A DNA stretch of 64,000 nt from a virus. Made by a program: the position numbers and the translations under genes. Positions 6,628 through 16,783 of the stretch are shown piece after piece. Position 1 is the first letter of the stretch, and the number at the start of each line of letters is the position of its first letter. The notes beneath the pieces are model-generated. The model was not told the origin of the DNA. It made no database searches and was given only the letters and a program-made list of their open reading frames with translations. The stretch is taken from IMG/VR virus record IMGVR_UViG_3300010397_000042, positions 1-64,000 of that record; one strand, 5' to 3'.

Positions 6628-6986
6628 TTCGAGATGGCGAGAAGTTACTGCTGAGTTTCGATATCGGGAGTGTTCCATGGAAGTACGTCGAGTCTGACGA
6701 CAGCATCGAAGACGAGATGACAGAAGCGCAAGGCATCATGCGCGCAGATCGTCAGGTCGTCTATGTGAACCGCAGTGAAACACCGCCTGAGGGTTATGAA
6801 TACGTGTTCTTCCATGAAGCAGGACACGCGGTGTTCTTTACTACTGGTGTCAAAGAAGCACTGAAACAGATCACTGGATTCGAGGGGGACAAGTGCACCC
6901 AACTCGAAGAATTCCTGATGTCCAACTTGATGCATGCCATGTACGACACGCTCAAGCGTAACGGCTGGCTGAAGATTCCCTTATGA
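6624..6986 (+). CDS. Small HExxH metallopeptidase-like phage protein
   Basis: FFHEAGHA plus downstream EE. Confidence 0.6.
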   Translation: MIRDGEKLLLSFDIGSVPWKYVESDDSIEDEMTEAQGIMRADRQVVYVNRSETPPEGYEYVFFHEAGHAVFFTTGVKEALKQITGFEGDKCTQLEEFLMSNLMHAMYDTLKRNGWLKIPL

Positions 6987-7118
6987 GCGACACAACCCTG
7001 GTTCTTGTGGTCCCAACGGCCACCCTTACACAAACCCAATCGTCGGCGACCCTCGAACTTGAAACGGACGTCGATGCAACCATGACTCAATCGGTACTTT
7101 CGGCGGAGCTTATTGAAA

Positions 7119-7475
7119 ATGAGTGACTTTACGATCAACCGCGGTGACACAACGGAGTGGAAGCTCACCGCTCGCAAAGACGGCGTAGCCATCGATCTGA
7201 CTGGTGGTCAGGTCTTCATGGCGGTTCGACGCAACTACGCGTCACCATTGCTATTTCAACGGACGAGTGCTGAGGACGGCGGCATCACGATCGACGATGG
7301 TACCGGTGGTACCGCGACGATCGAGCTCAAACCCGAGGACACCCTCAACCTAGCTAATGACGTTCTTTCGGTGGTCTATTCCATCCACGTCGTCACGGCT
7401 GCTGGCAAGCAGTACACCGTCAAACGGGGCACCCTCGAAATCGATCCGATTGCGTGGGATGGTGAAACACTCTGA
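7119..7475 (+). CDS. BppU N-terminal-like virion adaptor protein
   Basis: RGDT...IDLTG...ITI...G.ATIEL.PEDT...Y.I pattern. Confidence 0.6.
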   Translation: MSDFTINRGDTTEWKLTARKDGVAIDLTGGQVFMAVRRNYASPLLFQRTSAEDGGITIDDGTGGTATIELKPEDTLNLANDVLSVVYSIHVVTAAGKQYTVKRGTLEIDPIAWDGETL

Positions 7476-7511: not shown

Positions 7512-8333
7512 TTGGACAAAGGCAAAATACATGTGGTCATCGGCGACACCCAAGTCAAAGAGGGCGTACCGACCAACCATCTTTCTTGGATAGGGCAGTA
7601 CATCGTCGACCACTTTGCGGAGTGGCAACCTGACCTCAGTATCATACATACCGGCGACCATGCCGACATGCCGTCACTCAGTTCTTACGACAAGGGTAAG
7701 AAGGAGATGGAGGGCAGGCGTTACAAGGCAGATGTCCGAGCGTCCAACAACGGCTGGGACCTACTGAACGAACCGCTCTACGACTACAACAAGAAGCGCC
7801 GTAAGCCATGGGAGCCCAAGCGATTCATCACTCTTGGGAATCACGAGTATCGAATCAACAAGGCCTGCGAAGACACCGCTCAGTTGGACGGTGTCATCTC
7901 CACGGACGACTTGAACTACAAGGAGTGGGGATGGGAAGTGATTCCATTTCTCGAGATCCTCGACTTGGACGGTATCTGGTACAGCCACTACTTCTATAAC
8001 CCGCAAACCGGCAAACCGTACGGCGGTGCAAACCTTTACACGCGTCTCCAGACCATCGGGCATTCGTTCACGATGGGTCATCAACAAGGATTGAAGGTTG
8101 CGAGTCGCGAGGTCGGTAAGACCCGGCATTGCGGTCTCGTTCTAGGATCCACGTATCTTCACGATGAGAAGTACTTGGGCCCTCAGGGAAATGCGTATTG
8201 GCGAGGAATCGTTGTCTGCCATCAGGTCGAAAACGGTGCCTACGACAGGATGGAAGTCAGTCTCGATTTCTTATGCAGACGTTATGAGGGGAAGACCCTC
8301 TCGGAGTTTATGCGAGGAGTAGTAGCAGCATGA
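7512..8333 (+). CDS. Calcineurin-like metallophosphoesterase
   Basis: IGDTQ, GDHAD, LGNHE, SH, GHQQ motifs. Confidence 0.85.
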   Translation: MDKGKIHVVIGDTQVKEGVPTNHLSWIGQYIVDHFAEWQPDLSIIHTGDHADMPSLSSYDKGKKEMEGRRYKADVRASNNGWDLLNEPLYDYNKKRRKPWEPKRFITLGNHEYRINKACEDTAQLDGVISTDDLNYKEWGWEVIPFLEILDLDGIWYSHYFYNPQTGKPYGGANLYTRLQTIGHSFTMGHQQGLKVASREVGKTRHCGLVLGSTYLHDEKYLGPQGNAYWRGIVVCHQVENGAYDRMEVSLDFLCRRYEGKTLSEFMRGVVAA

Positions 8334-9040
8334 AGTTAGGTCTTATCTTTGCGTTCGTTCTTTCTTTGGCAGCATGTGTCACGCCATTAGACGTGGTTCC
8401 ACCGTCCGTTTCAAAGGCTCCTGTCTCGAAGGAGCAATCGGCTTTCAGTCTCAGATCAAAGACGGTAGCTCTGGTCCGGGGCACCGATGATGGTCCGGCA
8501 CCTTTTTGCACCGGGGTCTGGGTTACGCCGAGCACATTCCTGACCGCGCAGCACTGCGTCGACGAAGATAAGATGGGAGGGGTGTTCGTTTACACCTCCG
8601 AGAGTGACGTCTTCGGAAAGGGCGATCCTCATCCGAAGGCCAACATTCAAGTGCGACTAGCTTCACTAAAGAAGGTCGATGCGATTCACGACCTGGCGCT
8701 GCTGCATGCTCCCGATCCTCCCGAACAACACGGCATCGTCGAGACGGTGGCTAGCCGAGTTACCGCCGGTCAATTCGTTCAGACCATGGGGCACTCGATC
8801 GGACTCTGGTACAGCTACTCAAGCGGTGACGTAAGCGCGGTCCGATGGATCGATGCTGGTGACGGCAGCATGATGTACGTCCAGACCACCGTTCCAACCA
8901 GTCCGGGTAACAGCGGTGGTGGACTCTTCAACGAGAACCTCGAGCTCGTCGGGCTCTGTCACGGCACGGTGAAGCACGGTCAGAACATCAGCTTCTACGT
9001 TCACGCGCAGCACATCGCCGAGTTCTTGAAGGATAAATGA
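8330..9040 (+). CDS. Trypsin-like (S1) serine protease, predicted lipoprotein
   Basis: LTAQHC, DLALL, PGNSGG catalytic triad; SLAAC lipobox. Confidence 0.9.
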   Translation: MKLGLIFAFVLSLAACVTPLDVVPPSVSKAPVSKEQSAFSLRSKTVALVRGTDDGPAPFCTGVWVTPSTFLTAQHCVDEDKMGGVFVYTSESDVFGKGDPHPKANIQVRLASLKKVDAIHDLALLHAPDPPEQHGIVETVASRVTAGQFVQTMGHSIGLWYSYSSGDVSAVRWIDAGDGSMMYVQTTVPTSPGNSGGGLFNENLELVGLCHGTVKHGQNISFYVHAQHIAEFLKDK

Positions 9041-9216
9041 CGCCCGAGCAGTTCTGCTACTGGCTCCAAGGCTTCTTCGAGATGACCGGCGACAAGGCCA
9101 AGCTGTCGCCCGAGCAGGTCAAGATGGTCCGAGATCACCTTGCCATCGTCTTCAAAAAGGTGACGCCACCGCTCAAAACTGTCCGTCCATCAAGGTGGGA
9201 CGGGAAGCTCTGTTGA
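9037..9216 (+). CDS. Small conserved phage protein (MTPEQFCYWLQG type)
   Basis: 59 aa; ATGA overlap with the protease gene. Confidence 0.65.
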   Translation: MTPEQFCYWLQGFFEMTGDKAKLSPEQVKMVRDHLAIVFKKVTPPLKTVRPSRWDGKLC

Positions 9217-9219
9217 TTC

Positions 9220-9257
9220 GAACTCCGCGAGGTTTCCTCCTCCCTCGTGTTGAGTTC
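9220..9257 (+). ncRNA. Hairpin with anti-SD C-rich loop (CCUCCUCCC), possible sRNA
   Basis: GAACTC-CGCGAGG / CCTCGTG-TT-GAGTTC stem with loop TTTCCTCCTC. Confidence 0.4.
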
Positions 9258-9261
9258 CTGG

Positions 9262-9299
9262 GACCCCGGGGCCGAAAGGCTACCGGGGTTTCGGTCTTT
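9262..9299 (+). terminator. Rho-independent terminator-like hairpin
   Basis: ACCCCGG-GGCC-GAAA-GGCT-A-CCGGGGT followed by TTCGGTCTTT. Confidence 0.6.
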
Positions 9300-9316
9300 G
9301 GAGGCGAAAGAAAACT

Positions 9317-9580
9317 ATGAGTACGTACGTCTATCCGTGTCATGTATGCGGCGAGGATCTGAGTCCCGGGTACTTCCACTACAAGATCGAAGTGAAAGGA
9401 AAGGTCGAGATGATCCACATCCCCTGTCTATCGAAGCTGGATCAAAATTCGATCACGTTGGTCCGCTACCGTGAGGGAGAAAACTCAACCCCGGACTCAA
9501 CCCCTGCTCAACCTCACGGGACGAAAACAGCGGGAACAGCGAAGGCAGTGAAGAGCCTTCGGAGCGACGAAACCCCCTAA
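9317..9580 (+). CDS. Hypothetical protein with CxxC
   Basis: GGAGG upstream of ATG; 87 aa. Confidence 0.5.
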   Translation: MSTYVYPCHVCGEDLSPGYFHYKIEVKGKVEMIHIPCLSKLDQNSITLVRYREGENSTPDSTPAQPHGTKTAGTAKAVKSLRSDETP

Positions 9581-9710
9581 ATTCGGTGCCCAGAGACGGA
9601 ATCGAACCGCCGACACGGGGATTTTCAATCCTAAATTCAGTGCACCGATTCCAGCTAAAATGGCCGGAAAATGGCCACATTCAGTCTGGACTCACCCCCG
9701 GCTCTACCTC
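9483..9710. mobile_element. attP region: tRNA-Phe(GAA) 3'-half core with flanking arm-type repeats
   Basis: Core at 9585-9631; repeats (A/G)CTC(A/T)(A/C)CC(C/T)C at 9483, 9495, 9506, 9690, 9701; AAAATGGCC twice at 9657 and 9668; convergent gene blocks on both sides. Confidence 0.8.
9585..9631 (-). tRNA. Partial tRNA-Phe(GAA): anticodon arm to 3' end only (att core)
   Basis: Minus strand GGATTGAAAATCCCCGTGTCGGCGGTTCGATTCCGTCTCTGGGCACC; no 5' acceptor strand or D-arm upstream. Confidence 0.85.
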
Positions 9711-9982
9711 GACTTCCGAAGCGCATCTGCGATGCTGACGGCTTTTCCACCCCAGTTGAGCGCCAGGTTTTCCGCATGCACTCGACTGAACACTTCGGGT
9801 TCATCCGTATGCGTCCAGTGATAGCCGAGGCGCCCGCTTGTAAGACGCATCCCGTTACAGCGGTGCACGATGATCCAGGAGCCGTACTGATTCTTTCTCA
9901 CGGCTCTACCTCCAGATGCACCAAAACGCCGTACCAGGCCAGTCGTGCATTTCCACGCGGAGCTCGCTATAAGGATCGCCAC
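9704..9982 (-). CDS. Hypothetical protein
   Basis: ORF in the tightly packed leftward block; start uncertain. Confidence 0.45.
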   Translation of the reverse strand: MAILIASSAWKCTTGLVRRFGASGGRAVRKNQYGSWIIVHRCNGMRLTSGRLGYHWTHTDEPEVFSRVHAENLALNWGGKAVSIADALRKSR

Positions 9983-10203
9983 GAAACGTCATATGCCATC
10001 GAAAATGGTGAACGCAGGTCATTCGAGCTCCTCGAGTTCGTCGATCGGGAGCCACTGCCAGCCGCAGGGTGTACCGAAGAAGGCCATCGGTTCGTCGTCG
10101 ATGATCTCCAGCTTGGTGACGGTGCCTTCCATGTCCTCCAGGGCGGCGATGAAACAGTAGCGTTTGTGGCTCTCCGCGGTGGGACGTACGCGACTACCGA
10201 TCT

Positions 10204-10389
10204 TCATTCCGAGTCCCCTCTCTGAACGAGGCGAAACATGCCTGCGGGTGCATAGTGGCGATCGCCAGCGTTGATGATCCCATCGGCGGAGATCTCTTTG
10301 ACGATCGTGATCTCGTCTGTCCAAGCTCGGCGATGTCGACGGACTACTAGATCGCCCAGCTTCGGTTCTTCACCTGTAGAGTACTTCAC
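10204..10389 (-). CDS. Hypothetical protein (MKYSTGEEPKLGD...)
   Basis: 61 aa in the leftward block. Confidence 0.55.
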   Translation of the reverse strand: MKYSTGEEPKLGDLVVRRHRRAWTDEITIVKEISADGIINAGDRHYAPAGMFRLVQRGDSE

Positions 10390-10522
10390 GTAAACTCCGC
10401 GTCCCCTCTCTGGCTGGGAGTCACCGCCTGCCAGCGCATGGTTCTATGGAACTGCGAACGGCGGCACCTTCCGGTCCGCCGCCCATCATCGTCGAGCTCG
10501 TACTCGATAGCTGGCTTCTTCA

Positions 10523-10777
10523 TCAGTGGCCTCGCCGGTCGCAACTGGGGCACATGGGGTCTCTGCAGATGGGCCGTACCCGCCCGCCCAGCCTAACGAC
10601 TCGAGCATGTCGACCGTCAACTTCGCGAATCACACGAGCTAGTAAATGGACCAATCCTCGGTCGCTCCAACAAAGAGCTTCCGAACGACGCCGGGTGGTT
10701 GTGATATCGCCACCTGCGTACGAGTTCACGTAGGGTCCAGTACCGCGGCGCTTGCCAATCCGGATGTAGAACTTCAT
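10523..10777 (-). CDS. Hypothetical protein
   Basis: 84 aa; ATGA overlap. Confidence 0.55.
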   Translation of the reverse strand: MKFYIRIGKRRGTGPYVNSYAGGDITTTRRRSEALCWSDRGLVHLLARVIREVDGRHARVVRLGGRVRPICRDPMCPSCDRRGH

Positions 10778-11169
10778 AAAGCGGTGTCTCCCGGGACGTG
10801 AAGCCAGACGTGACCGTTCACCAGGTCCCAGACCTTGCGTTCGTAATCGGAGTACTGAACTCGCTCCACGACGGACGGAAACATTTTGAGGAGCTCCGGA
10901 GTGATCTGGACGGGTTCGTAGGGCATGAGCGTTACGATTTCATTCCCGGTCCAGTAGAACATGATGTTGTTCAGTCCCTGCCAGGCGGGATGATTTCGGT
11001 CCTTCAGGTATTCGAAGGCTTCCGCCATCGATCGCACCTCAACCGGTGCCTTGATGTCTTCGTGATAGAGGAACCATCGGTTGTATGTGACGCGGATGGA
11101 GTCAAACCCAGTGGCTTCCAGGGAGTACTCCCAGCGGAACTTCTTCGGCTCCCAAGTTACGATCTTCAT
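10774..11169 (-). CDS. Hypothetical protein
   Basis: 131 aa, aromatic-rich, coupled to neighbours. Confidence 0.65.
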   Translation of the reverse strand: MKIVTWEPKKFRWEYSLEATGFDSIRVTYNRWFLYHEDIKAPVEVRSMAEAFEYLKDRNHPAWQGLNNIMFYWTGNEIVTLMPYEPVQITPELLKMFPSVVERVQYSDYERKVWDLVNGHVWLHVPGDTAL

Positions 11170-11306
11170 TTCTTAGCCTTCGCTAGTTCGAGGGTATCGG
11201 CTACCAAATCGTTCCATCGTGTCTGAAGGTCGCTTGGGAGGTGCTCCCAAGGAGGGAGTTGTTCGCCGGATCGAAAGTACTCGTATAGATCTCGTCCGCT
11301 CATTTC

Positions 11307-12161
11307 TTAGCCTCCGCTTGCATGCCCATGGACGGGACACGCTTCATCGGGTATGCGCCGGTCGCTCGGCACGAACCCGCCGGCGCAGTCTTGTTCGTAC
11401 GTGCAGGTACAAAGCGCGTTAGCCAGCTCGGCGAGCACCGCGACGAAACCGTGCTTGAATGCAACCAACCCGTAGCGCTCGGCTTCGTTCACCACCTCAC
11501 GCGCCGCCTCGGCGACCTTCCGGAGCGCCAGCACCTCGTGGACGTAGTCTCGGAGCTCGTTCAGGGCGTACCCGCACTCTCCGCACGGCTCGTTCCCCAG
11601 ATCTTCGAAGTGCGACACCAGCTCCGACATCGACCGGATAGGTTTCGGCGTTGCCCTCTCTCGGCGTCGATCGGCAGCAACCTTGCGAGCAAGCCGACGC
11701 ACTTCCGTACCGGCGTAGTGCTCCGCCGTATCGAGCAGCTCTTTGAGCAAAAGGGCGTCGACCGAGACGCGATCCGGCGTTGACTCGTTGGAGGCTCGCT
11801 CGCGGCGAACCCTTTCCTCCCTCGACTTGGTGACCTCGTCAGCTAGAGCACGCACTTCATTGACAACGCAGCCCATGCTGTAGCCCTTCTGGCCCAGCGC
11901 AGTCATGATGATGTCCCGAACGAGACGCCAAGGATTCTCGTCGTGGACCTCACCGCAAGCCCCGTGAGGCTTCGCTTCGGCGGAGCGTGGCGCATCGGCG
12001 AAGTAGGCTGCACATGCTCCGTCTTCGCTGTTCGTGACGGCATTCCCCGGATGTTTCAGCATTCTGTCGGGCATCCGCCACTCGTCCGCACCGAACTTTC
12101 GGACTGAGCATCGCTTCGAGTGTCCCTCAGCCATGCCGCAGTAGGCACACACGTCGCTCAT
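11307..12161 (-). CDS. Mosaic modular protein A (shares linkers with 51621-52442)
   Basis: Start MSDVCAYCG; SAE, SNE, RRRERATP and ALRKVAE linkers. Confidence 0.7.
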   Translation of the reverse strand: MSDVCAYCGMAEGHSKRCSVRKFGADEWRMPDRMLKHPGNAVTNSEDGACAAYFADAPRSAEAKPHGACGEVHDENPWRLVRDIIMTALGQKGYSMGCVVNEVRALADEVTKSREERVRRERASNESTPDRVSVDALLLKELLDTAEHYAGTEVRRLARKVAADRRRERATPKPIRSMSELVSHFEDLGNEPCGECGYALNELRDYVHEVLALRKVAEAAREVVNEAERYGLVAFKHGFVAVLAELANALCTCTYEQDCAGGFVPSDRRIPDEACPVHGHASGG

Positions 12162-12285
12162 TCTTCGGCCTCGAGCTCGACGATTCGATTCTGTAGTTGT
12201 TGACACCAGTGGCGCAGATCATCCATCTCTCGCCGGACACGCTGCAACTCATCGTACAGACGCCAGTAGTCGTCATCCCTCGTGC

Positions 12286-12474
12286 TCATCGGCGGTACAG
12301 CCCTTCGCCATGGCCACCAACGTTGGCGAGCATGGGCAGGATCGCGGCGAGCGTCTGATGCCACCATGGATGACCCGGGGCCATCCAACTAAGTGCCACA
12401 TATATTCCGGTATACACCGAGGTCTCGCCGACGAACTTCCAGAACAAGCGAGACGTGAAGATCTTCTCAATCAT
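12286..12474 (-). CDS. Small membrane protein
   Basis: MIEKIFTSRLFWKF... with two hydrophobic segments. Confidence 0.5.
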   Translation of the reverse strand: MIEKIFTSRLFWKFVGETSVYTGIYVALSWMAPGHPWWHQTLAAILPMLANVGGHGEGLYRR

Positions 12475-12728
12475 CGGGCGAACACTCGATTCTGGGCTGC
12501 CACATAGTCTGGGTTGGTCACCTCTCGAAACTCGCCCTTCTCGAGCATGCGATCGACGCAAGCGAGCATCAGCCAACTGTCTCCGGTCGTGCCGCAGATG
12601 GCCGAACCCATGGTGAATGCACCCGCCTTCCGCAGGAGATCCTTCACCCGATCTCGAATCTCGATGTACATGTTGAGCCCCTCCTCAGTGAAGAGTCGCT
12701 CCTTCTCGTTTGGATACTTGTAGCTCAT
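12471..12728 (-). CDS. Conserved hypothetical phage protein (MSYKYPNEK...GDSW...CVD)
   Basis: Coupled ORF. Confidence 0.6.
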   Translation of the reverse strand: MSYKYPNEKERLFTEEGLNMYIEIRDRVKDLLRKAGAFTMGSAICGTTGDSWLMLACVDRMLEKGEFREVTNPDYVAAQNRVFAR

Positions 12729-12916
12729 CGGGGGATGATCCTCCCTTTGGTGATGTTCATCTTCTCGTCGAGCTCGAACTCGAGCGATGCGTACTCTCCG
12801 TACTCGAACCACTTCTCATCTTCTTCCTCGGACATGCCGAAGTGGTCGATAACCTCGTTCCACATGTCCGGGTCTTTGATGTCCTCGAGTACAACCTTGA
12901 TCGTCTTCTTCTTCAT
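12725..12916 (-). CDS. Small acidic protein
   Basis: 63 aa, D/E-rich. Confidence 0.6.
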   Translation of the reverse strand: MKKKTIKVVLEDIKDPDMWNEVIDHFGMSEEEDEKWFEYGEYASLEFELDEKMNITKGRIIPR

Positions 12917-14154
12917 ACAGCCCTCAAGTGCCTCGGCTTAGGTACCTTCTCGAGCACCGCTTCAATCAACGGGGAGACGTCCGAGGCCTTCCTCTTCCCG
13001 TAGACCTGTTTCAACATTCGATCGTCTGAGTGTCCCATCAGCGGGTACGCAAGCTCGTAGGGGACGCCTGCCTGCATCAGCCATTGGGCAAATGTGCGGC
13101 GTAGGTCGGTTGGGCAGAAAGGCTCGAACACCGGAACCTTCTTGCACTCGGGACACTTCGGATCCCGACATGGCGTTCCCATGGTCTGAGAGGTGCCCCG
13201 AACCAAGCTGTTACCGCTCCTCCACCAGAGATTCTTGCTCTGCTCGCAGTCCTTGCACATCGACAGGTAAGCGCAGGCGATCAGGATGTCGCGTCTTACG
13301 TTGCCCCACGCGGCGAAGAGTGAGTCGTTCTTCCCGTCGGCGTTCCGCATGGCCCGCTCAAACAGGTGACGGCGATCGCTGGGGACGATGAACGTTCGAT
13401 CTCGGAGCTCGCGCTTCGTACCTCGGATGTGAACCTCGAACGTCTCCATGTTCATCTCAGATCGCTTGGAGTGCGCCACCTCGCTCGGGTAGGTCGATCC
13501 GGTCGAGACGATGAAGTCCAAGACACCGCCCTTCGCTGCCGATCGGTTCGCGTACCACCATCGCATAAACCGGTCGTACTCCTCTCGAGTCAGCCACCGT
13601 TCTCTAGGTACATAGAGAGCCTGGAAGTCTTCCGGCTTCATCTCGGTGACGGAGCCGCAACTCACTCCGTCCCGCTTCGCCATCTTCATCGCCATACTCA
13701 GGGCGGTGAGCTCCTTCCCGATGGTGTTGCCTTTGGTTCCCTCGTCGGTTCGCTGCTGAATGTACTGTCGTATCGTTTCTGGAGTGATCCCAGATAGGAG
13801 TAGATTCGGTCCCAATACACGGACAAGGACACCGCTCTTTTTCTCGTAGAACTTGATCGTGTCTTCCGCGAGCTTCTTTCGGGAGGGGTCATTGTTCTTA
13901 CGATTGCTCTTCAACCATTCGATCCGGTTGAGGAGAGCGGTGTTGAGGGTGCGCTCCTTTTTCTCGGAGCCGTCCACAGGATTCTTTCGGACCCGCTCGA
14001 GGTAGACGCGGTGGGCGGCGACATCGTCGCGCTGTCCGGTGCTCTCTCGGATGTGCCGTCCCCCCTTCGGATTCGGGAGCTGCATCCACCAGATCGTCGA
14101 GCCCGGGTACTTGAAGAGCTCTGGGTAGCGCTGATGCCGGATGTAGCCTGACAT
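12913..14154 (-). CDS. int: Tyrosine recombinase/integrase (atypical active site, Cys-rich insertion)
   Basis: Core-binding region, IRGTK, DLRRTFA, LMGHS...VY motifs. Confidence 0.85.
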   Translation of the reverse strand: MSGYIRHQRYPELFKYPGSTIWWMQLPNPKGGRHIRESTGQRDDVAAHRVYLERVRKNPVDGSEKKERTLNTALLNRIEWLKSNRKNNDPSRKKLAEDTIKFYEKKSGVLVRVLGPNLLLSGITPETIRQYIQQRTDEGTKGNTIGKELTALSMAMKMAKRDGVSCGSVTEMKPEDFQALYVPRERWLTREEYDRFMRWWYANRSAAKGGVLDFIVSTGSTYPSEVAHSKRSEMNMETFEVHIRGTKRELRDRTFIVPSDRRHLFERAMRNADGKNDSLFAAWGNVRRDILIACAYLSMCKDCEQSKNLWWRSGNSLVRGTSQTMGTPCRDPKCPECKKVPVFEPFCPTDLRRTFAQWLMQAGVPYELAYPLMGHSDDRMLKQVYGKRKASDVSPLIEAVLEKVPKPRHLRAV

Positions 14155-14306
14155 GTTCGAGACTCCTTCCACTGTTCGAAGGCCTCACGTGAAACGCGAA
14201 TGGACCTCCCCGACACGAGGCGTGTGCACTCGCGAGCGATCTCATACGCGCGCGTCAAGCTAACGCAAAGCTCTTTCGAGATATCCTTTGCAGTCAAGTA
14301 CTGCAT
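13911..14306 (-). CDS. Excisionase-like helix-turn-helix protein
   Basis: MQYLTAKDISKELCVSLTRAYEI...GRSIRVSREAFEQW; tail overlaps the int 5' end. Confidence 0.75.
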   Translation of the reverse strand: MQYLTAKDISKELCVSLTRAYEIARECTRLVSGRSIRVSREAFEQWKESRTCQATSGISATQSSSSTRARRSGGCSSRIRRGDGTSERAPDSATMSPPTASTSSGSERILWTAPRKRSAPSTPLSSTGSNG

Positions 14307-14395
14307 TTGAACGCGTATACGATTACAGAAAGTCCTACAATCACCCAAAGAGTCGCGCAAACATATACGATTGATGTAAACATTATTTACTCCTA

Positions 14396-14490
14396 GGTGA
14401 TTCGGCAGGACTCGAACCTGCACCTGGTGTTGCGTCTGCCAATTGCGCGCGGATCTCGTTAGCAAGACGAGTCCGTCACCCACGAATCAC
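14396..14490 (-). ncRNA. Aberrant tRNA-like RNA A (95 nt)
   Basis: GTGATTCG/CGAATCAC acceptor stem, perfect T-arm GCAGG-TTCGAGT-CCTGC, D-arm-like GCGCAATTGGCAGACGC; no anticodon arm at the normal position. Confidence 0.65.
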
Positions 14491-14491
14491 T

Positions 14492-14564
14492 CAGTATCGA
14501 ATCCGATCCAGTGAGCACCAGTGCCTCGATACCTCTGGACGTCGCTGCTCAATCGCTAAGTCCA
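14492..14564 (-). ncRNA. Two-hairpin kissing-loop RNA candidate
   Basis: TGGAC/GTCCA and GGTATCGAG/TTCGATACT stems; loops carry TGAGCA and TGCTCA. Confidence 0.4.
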
Positions 14565-14566
14565 TA

Positions 14567-14639
14567 GGACAGATCGCGGACTCGAACCGCTGCCGAAGGA
14601 GGGCGACTCCCCGTTCAGAACCCCTCTGATCAATCTGTC
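14567..14639 (-). ncRNA. Aberrant tRNA-like RNA B (73 nt)
   Basis: GACAGAT/ATCTGTC acceptor, TCAG-AGGGGTT-CTGA D-arm, GCGG-TTCGAGT-CCGC T-arm, non-canonical anticodon loop. Confidence 0.6.
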
Positions 14640-14667
14640 AAAAAGGGGCGACCTCTCCGTCACCCTC
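14640..14667 (-). terminator. Terminator-like hairpin downstream of tmRNA
   Basis: GGGTGAC-GGAGAG-GTCGCCC then CTTTTT on the minus strand. Confidence 0.45.
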
Positions 14668-14701
14668 CACCACGCCAATCAAGTACCATTACCCAATTAG
14701 C

Positions 14702-15044
14702 GGTGGACAAGTCGGGAATCGAACCCGAGTCCGAAAAACATCCTCATTCCCTTCATTCACGTGCGTAGCCTCTGTTGTAGCCAGAGGCAGCATTCATGAC
14801 GGTCTACGTCGGTGTCATGCAGACGACCCTGAAACAACCACGACTCGGGTCATCCGTGGCGATTGCCCTATAGGTTTACCCTGGAGCGATACTAGGGCGA
14901 TATGTGCTCCAGAGTCCTCACTCAGGCCGCAGCCTGGAGCTCGGGGATTGCGTTATCGTTCGCAGTTACGTTTCCCGATTGAAGAGGTCGGGGCTCTTGC
15001 ACGCAGAGTCTGATTCCATTCTCCGTCGAAACCATTGCTTGCCC
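14702..15044 (-). ncRNA. ssrA: tmRNA
   Basis: 5' GGGCAAGCAATGGTTTCGACG; 3' TCGGGTTCGATTCCCGACTTGTCCACC; G3:U70 pair; tag ANDNAIPELQAAA* at 14963-14922. Confidence 0.93.
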
Positions 15045-15047
15045 TAA

Positions 15048-15140
15048 TGCAGCCGCCGTTGGGACCGGCGCAGCTCTTTCGAGCAACGTTCCCGTTTCGG
15101 TCATTCAAGCTACCCCGACCGGCCGCATGGGTAGCACTGC
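15048..15140 (-). ncRNA. Pseudoknot-rich RNA candidate upstream of tmRNA
   Basis: GCTACCC/GGGTAGC, loop CGGTC/GACCG, GCTC-GAAA-GAGC, CGCCG/CGGCG, GGGA/TCCC. Confidence 0.4.
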
Positions 15141-15150
15141 TAACTTCTAA

Positions 15151-15612
15151 TCAAAATGGAATGTCGTCGTCGCTCACATCACTCGTGAAATCATCATCTA
15201 CAGACTCAGGTTCCGGATTTGTATTTCGTCGCGGTGCAGCAGCCTTCTTAGACTCCTTAGCCTCGCTCTCTCCTCCACCTCGCTTTCCGCCACACAAGAG
15301 AACTTGGTTGGCATTGATCTCTGTTCGGTACCTCTTCTCGCCATCCTTCTCGTAACTCGAGGTACGTAGGCCTCCTTTTACGAAAATGCGATCCCCCTTA
15401 TTGAGGATCTTGGACAGCCCTTCCGCTCGCTTTCCCCAAAGCGTTACAGAGTGCCATTCAGTGCGCTCTTGACGCGTGTTCTCCCTGTCCAGATACGACT
15501 CGGTCGTCGCGAGTCGCAGCTTCAGAATCGCCTGACCGCCACTCGTCACCCGCAACTCAGGGTCTGCTCCGAGGTTCCCCAACAGATTTACTTCGTTTAG
15601 CCCTTCTGCCAT
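15151..15612 (-). CDS. ssb: Single-stranded DNA-binding protein
   Basis: LGNLGADPELR, TEWH, C-terminal DDDIPF. Confidence 0.97.
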   Translation of the reverse strand: MAEGLNEVNLLGNLGADPELRVTSGGQAILKLRLATTESYLDRENTRQERTEWHSVTLWGKRAEGLSKILNKGDRIFVKGGLRTSSYEKDGEKRYRTEINANQVLLCGGKRGGGESEAKESKKAAAPRRNTNPEPESVDDDFTSDVSDDDIPF

Positions 15613-15633
15613 TGCTGTTTCCTTTCAAGTCTT

Positions 15634-15662
15634 AGTATAGCACCGTGTTCAGAGTGTGTCAA
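15634..15662 (-). promoter_or_regulatory. Phage promoter motif copy (drives ssb and the ncRNA cluster)
   Basis: TTGACA-CACTCTGAAC...GC-TATACT, 17-bp spacer. Confidence 0.8.
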
Positions 15663-16783
15663 GACGCCATCGGCAAGCGCTTTTGCTTCCGGAACTCAGG
15701 GTAGACAGTTTTTCCCTTGAAGGACGCAAGCTTCTTCTCGATGTCTTCATCAGACATACCGAGCTTTGCGAGAGCCTTGACGAGCTCGCCTCGCATTGCA
15801 TCGGTGTCTTCGTATGATCGGCTCCTTTCGACGGGCCTGACTTCGTACTTATCACCGATCGGGATAGGCTTTTCCGCGGCGATTTTCTTCAAGCCTTTGA
15901 GTACGGGCTCAAGGAGTTTCTCCGCCTGTTTTGCCAGCTCCCAGACCTGACCCATCTCCTCCGGTGTGAGAGCGGTGAGATGAGGTCCTTGGGTAATCTC
16001 GGTGAGTTTCCCCAGCATCGCTTTCGCGGTGTTCATCCAGTACGGACAGTACGTCATCGCAGGGCAGTATGCACATGCTTCGTCACTAGGACTGACGGGC
16101 GGCATGATCCCAGACGCCAGCAAGCTCTTGGCTGCTAGTACGTTGTCAATCGCGCTTTTCAGCTGATCGCAGTACTCCTCCGCATCGAACAGGGTGAACT
16201 CGTGGCCATCGTGCTTGATTTCACCGCTGTCCCAGATGTACGCAACACGGCTAATAGCCGTAGAAGCGTCGTAATAGAGCATCAGTCCGGTAGCGCAAAC
16301 TCGTCGCTGCCAGTGCTCTGCTGGATCCCCGATGCTCTGGCCGCTCTTGTAATCCAACTCCACTGGCGTTGTTTCGAAGAATGCCTCGACGTCGATCGTG
16401 AAAGGAATTTCATACGTAGATAGCGGTGCTTGTCCCGTTCGCTCCAGTTCTCCATTGTAGTCTCTCCCAATGTTGGTGCCGACGTATCGGGTGGTTCGGG
16501 TTTGGACATTCAGCGCGTAGGCCTTCTCGCATCCAGTTACGCGAAGACCATCGAGAGCCGAGTTCAGATTCATGCCAGCAGCGGTGTGGCGATACTCTTC
16601 GCTTACAGCCGCGAGAGCGGCATCGCGAGAGCTCGGACTTATGGTTACTACTCGAGCGAACGCGTGAAGCTCGTTCCCGCGCTCAGCTCGCTCAGTGCTC
16701 GTTCTGACTTGGGGAAGCGCAAGGCGCGTGGGGCAAAGAATCGTTGCCCCAGCACCCGACGCCGACATGCCAGACCAGCTCAT
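15659..16783 (-). CDS. PD-(D/E)XK exonuclease (RecB/Cas4-like phage type)
   Basis: AERGNELH, TIDV, LDYKSG, Q, CAYCPAMTYCP. Confidence 0.8.
   Translation of the reverse strand: MSWSGMSASGAGATILCPTRLALPQVRTSTERAERGNELHAFARVVTISPSSRDAALAAVSEEYRHTAAGMNLNSALDGLRVTGCEKAYALNVQTRTTRYVGTNIGRDYNGELERTGQAPLSTYEIPFTIDVEAFFETTPVELDYKSGQSIGDPAEHWQRRVCATGLMLYYDASTAISRVAYIWDSGEIKHDGHEFTLFDAEEYCDQLKSAIDNVLAAKSLLASGIMPPVSPSDEACAYCPAMTYCPYWMNTAKAMLGKLTEITQGPHLTALTPEEMGQVWELAKQAEKLLEPVLKGLKKIAAEKPIPIGDKYEVRPVERSRSYEDTDAMRGELVKALAKLGMSDEDIEKKLASFKGKTVYPEFRKQKRLPMAS

What the first reader, a model, noticed from the sequence alone, without database searches (positions are those of the whole stretch)
14396..14490. 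tRNA-like RNA A with its arms in the wrong order
Minus strand: GTGATTCG TG GGTG AC [GGA-CTCGT-CTTGCTA-ACGAG-A-TCC] GC [GCG-CAATTGGCAGA-CGC] AA CACC AGGT [GCAGG-TTCGAGT-CCTGC] CGAATCAC CTA. An anticodon-like hairpin (5 bp, 7-nt loop centred on UGC) lies 5' of a Leu/Ser-type D-arm, both enclosed by a GGTG/CACC helix, and nothing occupies the normal anticodon position. The acceptor can be read as 8 bp or as 7 bp plus a His-like G-1:C73 pair. The near-perfect helices argue for selection rather than decay.
Basis: seen in the sequence. Interest (0 to 1): 0.75.

Follow-up and report, generated by a model that had tools for sequence, protein, structure and literature searches.

The report
Orphan non-cloverleaf phage tRNA look-alike
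A soil phage carries, just downstream of its own tmRNA gene, a 95-base gene for an RNA with the upper half of a tRNA but an oddly wired lower half; it most likely mimics a tRNA rather than reads codons, and is one more of the irregular tRNA look-alikes already reported from soil bacteria and their phages.

Summary
At 14396-14490 (minus strand) there are an 8-bp acceptor helix, a 5-bp T arm with a consensus T-loop, an 8-bp hairpin with a 7-nt loop, a 3-bp/11-nt class-II-type D hairpin, and a 4-bp GGUG/CACC helix enclosing both hairpins. A strict descriptor of this layout hit 3 times in 2.84 Mb of phage DNA and 0 times in a reversed control.

The window is an 89-kb temperate soil phage. The element is third in a row: phage tmRNA, tRNA-like B, then A. 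It lies upstream of a 29-aa ORF, xis and int. It is not the attP, which is a tRNA-Phe fragment near 9600.

The enclosing helix and the D hairpin are not proven. RNAfold prefers a rival pairing, and I found no orthologue, so there is no covariation. One analogue in a jumbo phage keeps the enclosing helix.

A fails ARAGORN, Rfam and tRNA-Sec. It also fails my models of two "rewired" phage tRNA families, one of which I confirmed independently (39 sequences, strong covariation).

Best reading: a non-decoding tRNA-shaped RNA that is processed like a tRNA and is possibly histidine-chargeable through G-1:C73. This matches the irregular G-1/extra-loop soil tRNAs of Mukai et al. 2017. This scan has noted similar mimics on other phage DNA.

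The parts
14396..14490 (-). tRNA-like RNA A, whole element (95 nt, numbered 1-95 from 14490 down)
   Evidence: Sequence. Weak full-length tRNA-Sec match of 19.9 bits, E 0.79. Sole window hit of my topology descriptor.
14483..14490 (-). Acceptor 5' strand GUGAUUCG (8 nt; or G-1 plus 7)
   Evidence: Pairs perfectly with 14397-14404. Pair probability 0.99.
14477..14480 (-). P2 5' strand GGUG
   Evidence: Complementary to CACC at 14426-14429. Not predicted by RNAfold, probability 0.003. An analogous helix GGGC/GCCC sits at the same place in L015.
14451..14474 (-). Hairpin X: 8 bp with one bulged A and 7-nt loop CUUGCUA (loop 14460-14466)
   Evidence: Present in every fold computed. Loop position 2 is U, but the position corresponding to 37 is U, not a purine (sequence).
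14432..14448 (-). D-like hairpin GCG-CAAUUGGCAGA-CGC (class-II/Leu type)
   Evidence: The same 3-bp/11-nt unit occurs in shortened tRNA-shaped phage RNAs such as L010 and L011. 37 of 52 positions from here to the 3' end are identical to L011, ungapped. The stem is not predicted by RNAfold.
14426..14429 (-). P2 3' strand CACC, followed by AGGU (14422-14425) as the only linker to the T stem
   Evidence: The string CC-AGGU-G is identical in L015.
14405..14421 (-). T arm GCAGG-UUCGAGU-CCUGC
   Evidence: Consensus T-loop motif. The best-aligned part in all model searches.
14396..14404 (-). Acceptor 3' strand CGAAUCAC plus C. No CCA is encoded; the next bases are UA
14701..15044 (-). Phage-encoded tmRNA, tag ANDNAIPELQAAA (context)
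   Evidence: ARAGORN. Rfam RF00023, 103.5 bits.
14646..14665 (-). Terminator-like hairpin plus U-run after the tmRNA (context)
14567..14639 (-). tRNA-like RNA B (context; 73 nt, near-cloverleaf)
   Evidence: T-loop motif. Sequence. Not called by ARAGORN or Rfam.
14293..14383 (-). 29-aa hydrophobic ORF with AGGAG 6 nt upstream, starting 13 nt after A (context)
   Evidence: No Pfam family.
12913..14306 (-). xis-like HTH ORF (from 14306) and tyrosine integrase (12913-14172) (context)
9577..9650 (-). 3' part of a tRNA-Phe(GAA) gene with no 5' half: the probable attP of this integrase (context; shows A is not the attP)
   Evidence: Sequence. 35 of 112 loci encoding integrase relatives have a tRNA-Phe gene called; the coordinates place it next to the integrase gene in most of them.

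Best explanation
A is a real, phage-encoded, tRNA-derived small RNA that keeps the upper half of a tRNA and has lost the codon-reading geometry. The upper half is the acceptor/T-arm stack, a consensus T-loop and a GG-bearing class-II D hairpin able to form the elbow. I call it a non-decoding tRNA-shaped RNA. Shown: the sequence elements; its place in a same-strand row tmRNA - B - A inside a temperate soil phage; and that it is not the attP. Inferred: it is cut out of a longer transcript by the host's tRNA-processing enzymes (RNase P at the 5' side, 3' trimming and CCA addition, since no CCA is encoded). Also inferred: its 13-bp acceptor/T helix with a G:C pair at the -1:73 position makes it a plausible substrate for bacterial HisRS, which charges minihelices carrying that pair. 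[quoted passage not shown] Hairpin X is too long (8-9 bp on top of a 4-bp helix) and has a pyrimidine where position 37 should be, so it probably does not present an anticodon. What the phage gains from it is unknown. Candidates are a decoy for tRNA-targeting host factors, tuning of ribosome rescue together with its tmRNA, or a processing site that frees the downstream orf29-xis-int message.
For: The structural elements are present and rare by chance. The D-like hairpin, 10-nt linker and T arm match the layout of shortened tRNA-shaped phage RNAs: 29 of 93 distinct pattern matches have that layout, and A shares 37/52 identities with L011. A jumbo-phage element (L015:7144-7245) has the same order: acceptor, 2 nt, 4-bp helix, hairpin, CAAUUGGCAGA, helix 3' strand, AGGU, T arm. 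Its enclosing helix has different letters (GGGC/GCCC) and its hairpin has no anticodon-like loop. A is not a canonical tRNA. Its neighbours are a phage tmRNA and a second non-decoding tRNA-like RNA. Literature: bacterial His identity is G-1 and C73, and HisRS charges 13-bp minihelices bearing that pair (PMC9976931, passages). Irregular soil tRNAs in polycistrons, some with G-1 and some with an extra loop, were charged by E. coli HisRS yet did not decode (PMC5389517, section 16 read in full).
Against: No orthologue was found, so no helix of A has covariation support. RNAfold gives P2 and the D-like stem almost no probability and prefers pairing GCGC (42-46) with GGGUG. No RNA data exist: the only public run holding this DNA is the source soil metagenome. 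The His idea rests on a single base pair; the element has no GUG anticodon, and processing that keeps G-1 is assumed. The L015 analogue is one sequence, found through a pattern that forced part of the similarity. The 435-kb phage with a related tmRNA has no such element after it, so the tmRNA-mimic row is not a conserved module.
Confidence: 0.5

Rival explanations
1. Evolutionary relic: a former phage tRNA or tRNA-shaped gene scrambled by insertion or recombination, transcribed or not, with no function of its own.
For: It is an orphan. It scores below ordinary tRNAs on every model (19.9 bits on tRNA-Sec; 17.8 bits on R3). Its neighbour B is also degenerate. With the 34 nt after U9-G10 left out, the remainder has the layout of shortened tRNA-shaped RNAs, as an insertion would give.
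Against: All 28 proposed pairs are standard, with no mismatch. The T-loop and D-loop motifs are intact. A decaying gene would be expected to show broken stems first.
Confidence: 0.22
2. Cis-acting element of the orf29-xis-int transcript: a tRNA-like 'punctuation' site, possibly a two-state switch, whose processing or folding sets the 5' end, stability or translation of the downstream message.
For: A ends 13 nt before the start codon, and the AGGAG follows its 3' end directly. Two mutually exclusive folds lie within about 5 kcal/mol. The only sigma-70-like promoter match found between 13800 and 15700 lies upstream of ssb, and a terminator follows the tmRNA, so A may depend on read-through.
Against: The close integrase relatives (L054, L055, L056) have no such element upstream of int. 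Nothing shows co-transcription.
Confidence: 0.12
3. A working non-cloverleaf decoding tRNA. Hairpin X presents UGC to read GCN codons, and the RNA is charged according to its acceptor.
For: Rewired phage tRNAs do exist. In 39 of them a 3-bp helix enclosing the anticodon arm covaries strongly (39/39, 39/39 and 32/39 cells paired; covariation score 0.864 against 0.205 in shuffles, 0 of 500 shuffles as high). The X loop has 7 nt with U at position 2.
Against: A scores 17.8 bits on the model of that family. Members score 50.9-75.5, and ordinary tRNAs (several matching ARAGORN calls in L015) score about 18-36. A is not found by the L275/L292 model at E 0.05. The X stem is 8-9 bp with a bulge, and position 37 is U. 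There is no G3:U70 for AlaRS, and His-charging would misread Ala codons.
Confidence: 0.1
4. Attachment-site or recombination remnant: a copy of a host tRNA 3' end left by integration.
For: It lies about 220 nt from xis/int, next to a tmRNA gene, and tmRNA genes are common integration targets (PMC11915505 abstract).
Against: The integrase family targets tRNA-Phe, and a tRNA-Phe 3' fragment lies at about 9577-9650. A has both acceptor strands, which an att remnant does not need. Its T arm differs from that of the tmRNA. No long direct repeat of it exists in 8000-16000.
Confidence: 0.03

Closest known systems
Irregular tRNAs in polycistrons from forest/peat soil (G-1 'tRNA1' and extra-loop species) and inactive allo-tRNA-like genes of Acidobacteria (Mukai et al. 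2017, PMC5389517; reviewed in PMC7609411)
   Same: Soil origin and tandem arrangement of several aberrant tRNA-like genes. A G at -1 pairs with position 73. There is an extra loop between acceptor stem and D stem (wording of PMC7609411). The reported behaviour was 'charged by HisRS but not used for translation', with a proposed non-translational role.
   Different: Those are described as 8/4 or 7/5 cloverleaves with an anticodon arm in the normal place; A is 8/5 and has none there. Their sequences are in figures and supplements that I could not see, so homology is untested. Here the genes sit in a phage next to a tmRNA.
Shortened, anticodon-arm-less or mini-armed tRNA-shaped RNAs of phages found here (e.g. 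L010, L011, L261, L307)
   Same: Class-II D hairpin with AAUUGGYAGA, a short linker, then a standard T arm and acceptor. A shares the 17-nt D arm, 10-nt linker and 17-nt T arm layout and 37/52 identities with L011.
   Different: In those, the D arm follows the acceptor after 2 nt and the discriminator is mostly A (17 of 29). A has 34 extra nt (GGUGAC, hairpin X, GC) before the D hairpin, C at the discriminator position and an 8-bp acceptor.
Rewired phage tRNA-Arg(UCU) family, with the anticodon arm enclosed by the D stem and the GG motif after it
   Same: The order is acceptor, short helix strand, anticodon-type hairpin, then the GG motif, then the T arm. The rival fold of A (12-14 pairing with 42-44) reproduces this wiring. 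The R3 alignment puts CAAUUGGCA on the family's UAAUUGGA motif.
   Different: A scores far below members (17.8 against 50.9-75.5 bits).
Bacterial tRNA-His / minihelix-His
   Same: An encoded 8th acceptor pair G:C at -1:73, giving 13 stacked pairs with the T stem (PMC9976931).
   Different: No GUG anticodon, no cloverleaf, and U1:A72 instead of the usual first pair.
tmRNA tRNA-like domain and the CDS-less mini-tmRNA of mycobacteriophage DS6A (Mao et al. 2009, known to me only through PMC11915505)
   Same: A phage-encoded tRNA-like RNA without an anticodon, linked to trans-translation; here physically next to a phage tmRNA.
   Different: A lacks the G3:U70 alanine mark and the tmRNA-type D-loop analogue. 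It does not match tmRNA models.

Membership tests
Canonical tRNA (ARAGORN; Rfam clan CL00001) | Cloverleaf order acceptor - D arm - anticodon arm - variable region - T arm, recognised by tRNA finders | tested here: not met
   ARAGORN finds only the tmRNA in the window and in the whole 89,011-bp record. Rfam at gathering thresholds gives only the tmRNA. At E up to 10 the best clan hit is tRNA-Sec at 19.9 bits.
tRNA-Sec (RF01852) | Score at or above the 47-bit gathering threshold | tested here: not met
   19.9 bits, E 0.79; only the acceptor and T arm align.
tRNA-Sec (RF01852) | 13-bp acceptor/T stack (8/5 in bacteria) | tested here: met
   8 + 5 pairs, read from the sequence. The long variable arm and the UCA anticodon are both absent (sequence).
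Bacterial tRNA-His | G-1 paired with C73 | tested here: met
   G at 14490 pairs with C at 14397. Identity rule taken from PMC9976931. Whether processing keeps G-1 is not testable here.
Bacterial tRNA-His | GUG anticodon in a standard anticodon arm | tested here: not met
   The only 7-nt loop reads CUUGCUA.
tmRNA tRNA-like domain / mini-tmRNA | G3:U70 alanine identity pair and a match to tmRNA models | tested here: not met
   The third acceptor pair is G:C (8-bp reading) or A:U (G-1 reading). No tmRNA-model match covers 14396-14490.
allo-tRNA (Mukai 2017) | 12-bp acceptor branch as 8/4 or 9/3, with a long variable arm | tested here: not met
   A is 8/5 (13 bp) with a 4-nt variable region. Definition from PMC5389517 and PMC7609411.
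Irregular polycistronic soil tRNAs (Mukai 2017) | Sequence or structure relationship to the published tRNA0/1/2 groups | not testable with these tools
   The sequences are only in Figure 4 and Supplementary Figures S5-S7. Figures are not held and supplements are closed. Shared descriptive traits (G-1, extra loop before the D stem, tandem genes, soil) come from the text.
Rewired phage tRNA-Arg(UCU) family (alignment A5, model R3) | Score comparable to members on the family covariance model | tested here: not met
   A scores 17.8 bits. Members outside the seed score 75.5 and 50.9 bits, and ordinary tRNAs about 18-36 bits (cross-checked).
L275/L292-type rewired CAU tRNA-like genes (model R2) | Match to the model at E 0.05 or better | tested here: not met
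   6 matches in the window plus 99 loci; none is A.
Shortened tRNA-shaped phage RNAs with a class-II D arm | D arm starting 2 nt after the acceptor, then 15-26 nt to the T-loop | tested here: not met
   In A, 34 nt separate U9-G10 from the D hairpin. The 3' 52 nt do fit this layout.
YrlA-type Y RNA with Ro60 | Rfam match and a Ro60 (TROVE) gene nearby | tested here: not met
   No Rfam hit. No TROVE match in the 89-kb record, while the control genomes rang.

The most novel reading that the evidence does not exclude
A is a functional non-cloverleaf tRNA-shaped RNA. A class-II D hairpin and an anticodon-like hairpin are nested inside a 4-bp helix so that the elbow and the 13-bp acceptor/T helix are preserved. 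It is excised by RNase P, given CCA and charged with histidine through G-1:C73. Together with the phage's own tmRNA and mimic B, it forms a small RNA toolkit that interferes with or reprograms host translation, ribosome rescue or tRNA-directed defence. It may toggle between two folds (P2 plus D hairpin versus the 'rewired-tRNA' pairing).
Probability: 0.15. Interest if true: 0.75.

Novelty: new variant of a known kind. Interest (0 to 1): 0.42.

Why it matters
If the RNA is made and charged, it would add a new wiring diagram to the small set of natural tRNA-shaped molecules that cells accept. It would also tie phage-encoded tmRNA to tRNA mimics, giving a testable handle on how temperate soil phages tamper with translation or tRNA-targeting immunity. 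As it stands, it mainly shows that irregular tRNA look-alikes, known from soil metatranscriptomes, also sit in phage genomes beside the lysogeny module, and that gene finders miss them.

Tried and rejected
Homologue searches that found nothing:
- blastn of 14290-15060 against 50,697 GenBank phages.
- An exact D-loop-to-T-arm pattern in IMG/VR.
- blastn of the same region against 112 loci encoding integrase relatives.
- A T-arm/acceptor scan of the 9 loci L054-L062, which gave only ordinary tRNAs and one spurious hit.
- Model R1 on 100 phage loci, where ordinary tRNAs scored 13-29 bits and only L015 aligned over the D-loop and P2.
- R1 on 151 Myxococcota genomes. 22 genomes had a match at E 0.01 or better, all 22 matches were 61-116 nt, and ARAGORN calls a canonical tRNA in each of the ten fetched loci.
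- R1 on four whole virus records, which found only the known L015 site and a tRNA.
- blastn of the L015 and L292 elements against GenBank phages.
- Look-alike lookups in this scan's own notes.

Host: the phage tmRNA-to-A region (14396-15044) has no BLAST match in the two myxobacterial MAGs that hold distant integrase relatives. The host stays unknown, and I could not search Acidobacteriota genomes.

tmRNA-linked module: a tmRNA pattern gave 2 IMG/VR loci. The 435-kb phage with a related tmRNA (tag ANDNADLTAAAA) has no T-loop-bearing element in the 700 nt after it.

Expression: no RNA holder is listed. The only run is the source soil metagenome, and laying its contigs showed one identical contig with no variants.

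No Ro60, SmpB or CCA-adding/poly(A) polymerase family gene is in the record.

Kissing-loop idea: the X loop can pair with UAGCGA at 14553-14558. The degenerate partner motif occurs 222 times on the minus strand of the window, about 0.26 expected in the 75-nt spacer, so I do not count it.

The MAFFT alignment of A, L015, L275 and L292 misplaces the 5' end of L015, so I did not run pair counts on it.

Literature searches and the papers read did not show this exact layout in print. The library is partial.

Full report
WHAT IS THERE.
The window is the first 64 kb of an 89,011-bp IMG/VR virus record, linear and about 60% complete by CheckV. PHROGs and Pfam hits identify a tail fibre, endolysin, integrase, SSB, PD-(D/E)XK nuclease, Sak4-like protein, DNA polymerase, ribonucleotide reductase and helicase, so this is a temperate phage. 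The only public run that holds the DNA is a soil metagenome, probably its source.

The order on the minus strand is as follows:
- ssb (15151-15612).
- A full-length tmRNA (14701-15044; Rfam 103.5 bits; tag ANDNAIPELQAAA).
- A terminator-like hairpin (14646-14665).
- tRNA-like B (14567-14639).
- A 76-nt spacer.
- The element in question, A (14396-14490).
- Thirteen nt later, a Shine-Dalgarno-preceded 29-aa hydrophobic ORF that overlaps the start of an HTH (xis-like) ORF.
- A tyrosine integrase.

ARAGORN finds no canonical tRNA anywhere in the 89 kb.

The quoted sequence and every proposed pair are correct. They are an 8-bp acceptor, GGUG/CACC (P2), an 8-bp hairpin X with loop CUUGCUA, a 3-bp/11-nt GG-bearing hairpin, and a 5-bp T arm with loop UUCGAGU. 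Only AGGU lies between P2 and the T stem.

This is not chance. The T-loop motif occurs 4 times in the window against 0.43 expected. A strict descriptor of the whole topology hit 3 times in 2.84 Mb of phage loci and never in the reversed control.

What is not established is the inner wiring:
- RNAfold keeps the acceptor and X but gives P2 and the D-like stem probabilities of 0.004 or less.
- A fold that keeps acceptor and T arm but pairs G12-U13-G14 with C42-G43-C44 is -35.5 kcal/mol.
- The MFE is -36.2 kcal/mol.

WHAT IT IS NOT.
It is not the attP. Relatives of the integrase (253 at E 0.001 or better, the best non-self 73% identical) sit near a tRNA-Phe(GAA) gene: ARAGORN calls one in 35 of 112 fetched loci, beside the integrase gene in most of them. 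The window has the 3' part of a tRNA-Phe gene, without its 5' half, at about 9577-9650.

It is not a canonical tRNA, a tRNA-Sec, a tmRNA domain or a Y RNA.

It is not linked to the integrase module. The three closest metagenomic relatives (72%, 62% and 46% identity) have no similar DNA and no such element upstream of int.

THE SEARCH FOR RELATIVES.
No orthologue turned up in any of the following:
- GenBank phages.
- IMG/VR by exact or degenerate patterns.
- 151 Myxococcota genomes.
- The source sample.
- This scan's own index.

Pattern scans did reveal context.

(i) Many phages carry shortened tRNA-shaped genes. These have an acceptor, a class-II D arm with AAUUGGYAGA, 15-26 nt, and then a T arm. 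From its D-like hairpin to its 3' end, A has exactly this layout: a 17-nt D arm, a 10-nt linker and a 17-nt T arm, with 37/52 ungapped identities to L011. So A can be described as such a molecule with 34 extra nt (GGUGAC, hairpin X, GC) placed between U9-G10 and the D arm. The GGUG of the insert is complementary to CACC in the linker.

(ii) One element inside the tRNA array of a 170-kb phage (L015:7144-7245) has the same order. It runs acceptor, 2 nt, GGGC, an 11-bp hairpin with a 12-nt loop, CAAUUGGCAGA, GCCC, AGGU, T arm. It keeps the enclosing helix with two changed pairs and cannot form the rival pairing. Its hairpin has no anticodon-like loop.

(iii) L275 and L292 are 78-nt genes with a CAU hairpin inside a helix and the GG motif after it. 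They show compensatory differences between the two copies.

(iv) Following a lead from earlier notes of this scan, I checked independently that a large 'rewired' tRNA-Arg(UCU) family exists. In 39 aligned members a 3-bp helix enclosing the anticodon arm is paired in 39/39, 39/39 and 32/39 cells, with several pair types. The covariation score is 0.864 against 0.205 in shuffles, and 0 of 500 shuffles reach it.

MEMBERSHIP.
A does not belong to these families by score. On the Arg-family model R3 it reaches 17.8 bits. Members outside the seed reach 75.5 and 50.9 bits. Ordinary tRNAs reach about 18-36 bits, and several of those coincide with ARAGORN calls in L015. The L275/L292 model does not find A at E 0.05.

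The R3 alignment is still instructive. It lays A's CAAUUGGCA on the family's UAAUUGGA motif and X on the anticodon arm. A's rival fold is exactly the family's wiring. A therefore sits between two designs and may adopt either.

HOW IT MOST LIKELY WORKS.
The parts needed by tRNA-handling enzymes are intact. These are a 13-bp acceptor/T helix, a consensus T-loop, and a GG loop that can close the elbow in either fold.

The part needed for decoding is not intact. The X stem is 8-9 bp with a bulge, mounted on a further helix. The loop has U where position 37 should be a purine. There is no G3:U70 to match its UGC triplet.

The top acceptor pair is G:C at the -1:73 position. According to PMC9976931 (passages), G-1 and C73 are the main bacterial histidine identity marks, and HisRS charges 13-bp minihelices that carry them.

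Mukai et al. 2017 (PMC5389517, section 16 read in full; review PMC7609411, passages) described irregular tRNAs in polycistrons from forest and peat soil, probably acidobacterial. Some carried G-1 and some an extra loop between acceptor and D stem. The G-1 species were charged by E. coli HisRS better than tRNA-His but did not decode, and a non-translational role was proposed.

A fits that behaviour. I therefore read it as a non-decoding, tRNA-shaped RNA that is processed like a tRNA and possibly histidylated (confidence 0.5). The steps of processing, charging and biological role are all inferred.

Rivals are a functionless relic (0.22), a cis-acting processing or switch element for orf29-xis-int (0.12), a true non-cloverleaf decoder (0.10) and an att remnant (0.03).

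NOVELTY AND SCORE.
Irregular tRNA look-alikes in soil organisms and phages are in print. This scan has already noted several His-type and rewired mimics on other phage DNA. Those notes were leads, and I tested only the rewired-Arg one.

A's particular wiring, with an anticodon-like hairpin and a complete class-II D hairpin nested in one helix, was not found in the papers I could search. Mukai's figures and supplements were not visible to me.

With no orthologue and no RNA data, it is a well-formed orphan. I class it as a new variant of a known kind, with interest 0.42.

Noticed in passing
window 14701-15044 (-): The phage encodes a complete one-piece tmRNA (tag ANDNAIPELQAAA) with its own terminator. 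No SmpB gene is in the 89-kb record. A 435-kb IMG/VR phage has a related tmRNA (tag ANDNADLTAAAA, L486).
   Followed up: partly
window 14567-14639 (-): tRNA-like B is 73 nt and near-cloverleaf, with a 9/4 (or 7/5 with an A-G mismatch) acceptor/T stack and an anticodon-like loop GUCGCCC. ARAGORN and Rfam miss it. Both A and B show U-N-G-C at loop positions 2-5.
   Followed up: partly
window 9577-9650 (-): The 3' part of a tRNA-Phe(GAA) gene, flanked by a 19-nt imperfect direct repeat (D16), is the probable attP. It lies 3.3 kb beyond the end of int, with ORFs of unknown function in between.
   Followed up: partly
window 14293-14383 (-): A 29-aa very hydrophobic ORF with a good Shine-Dalgarno lies directly after A and overlaps the xis-like start. 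It could be a small membrane peptide or toxin-like product. Mukai et al. noted toxin-antitoxin genes near irregular tRNAs.
   Followed up: no
window 13911-14306 (-): The xis-like HTH frame stays open for 131 codons and overlaps the integrase start in another frame. Only residues 3-50 match HTH_17, and weakly (E 0.0046).
   Followed up: no
L015 about 6900-7130 (-): Just downstream of the A-like element, the 170-kb phage has GAGGAAAGUCCGGAC. From memory this resembles the conserved core motif of RNase P RNA, so it may be a phage-encoded RNase P RNA. Not checked with Rfam.
   Followed up: no
L015 7385-7490 (-): A second odd tRNA-like element in the same array: acceptor, a tetraloop hairpin, a 5-bp helix enclosing another hairpin, then a T arm. 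ARAGORN does not call it.
   Followed up: no
IMG/VR loci L362-L481: A large family of tRNA-Arg(UCU) genes has no D hairpin before the anticodon arm. A 3-bp covarying helix encloses the arm and UAAYUGGA follows it. A second subfamily has a 5-6-bp enclosing helix and a 4-bp T stem (e.g. L394, L407).
   Followed up: partly
IMG/VR loci L164, L176, L158, L142: tRNA-shaped genes with normal acceptor, D and T arms but a mini anticodon arm (4-5-bp stem, 3-5-nt loop) that cannot present an anticodon.
   Followed up: no
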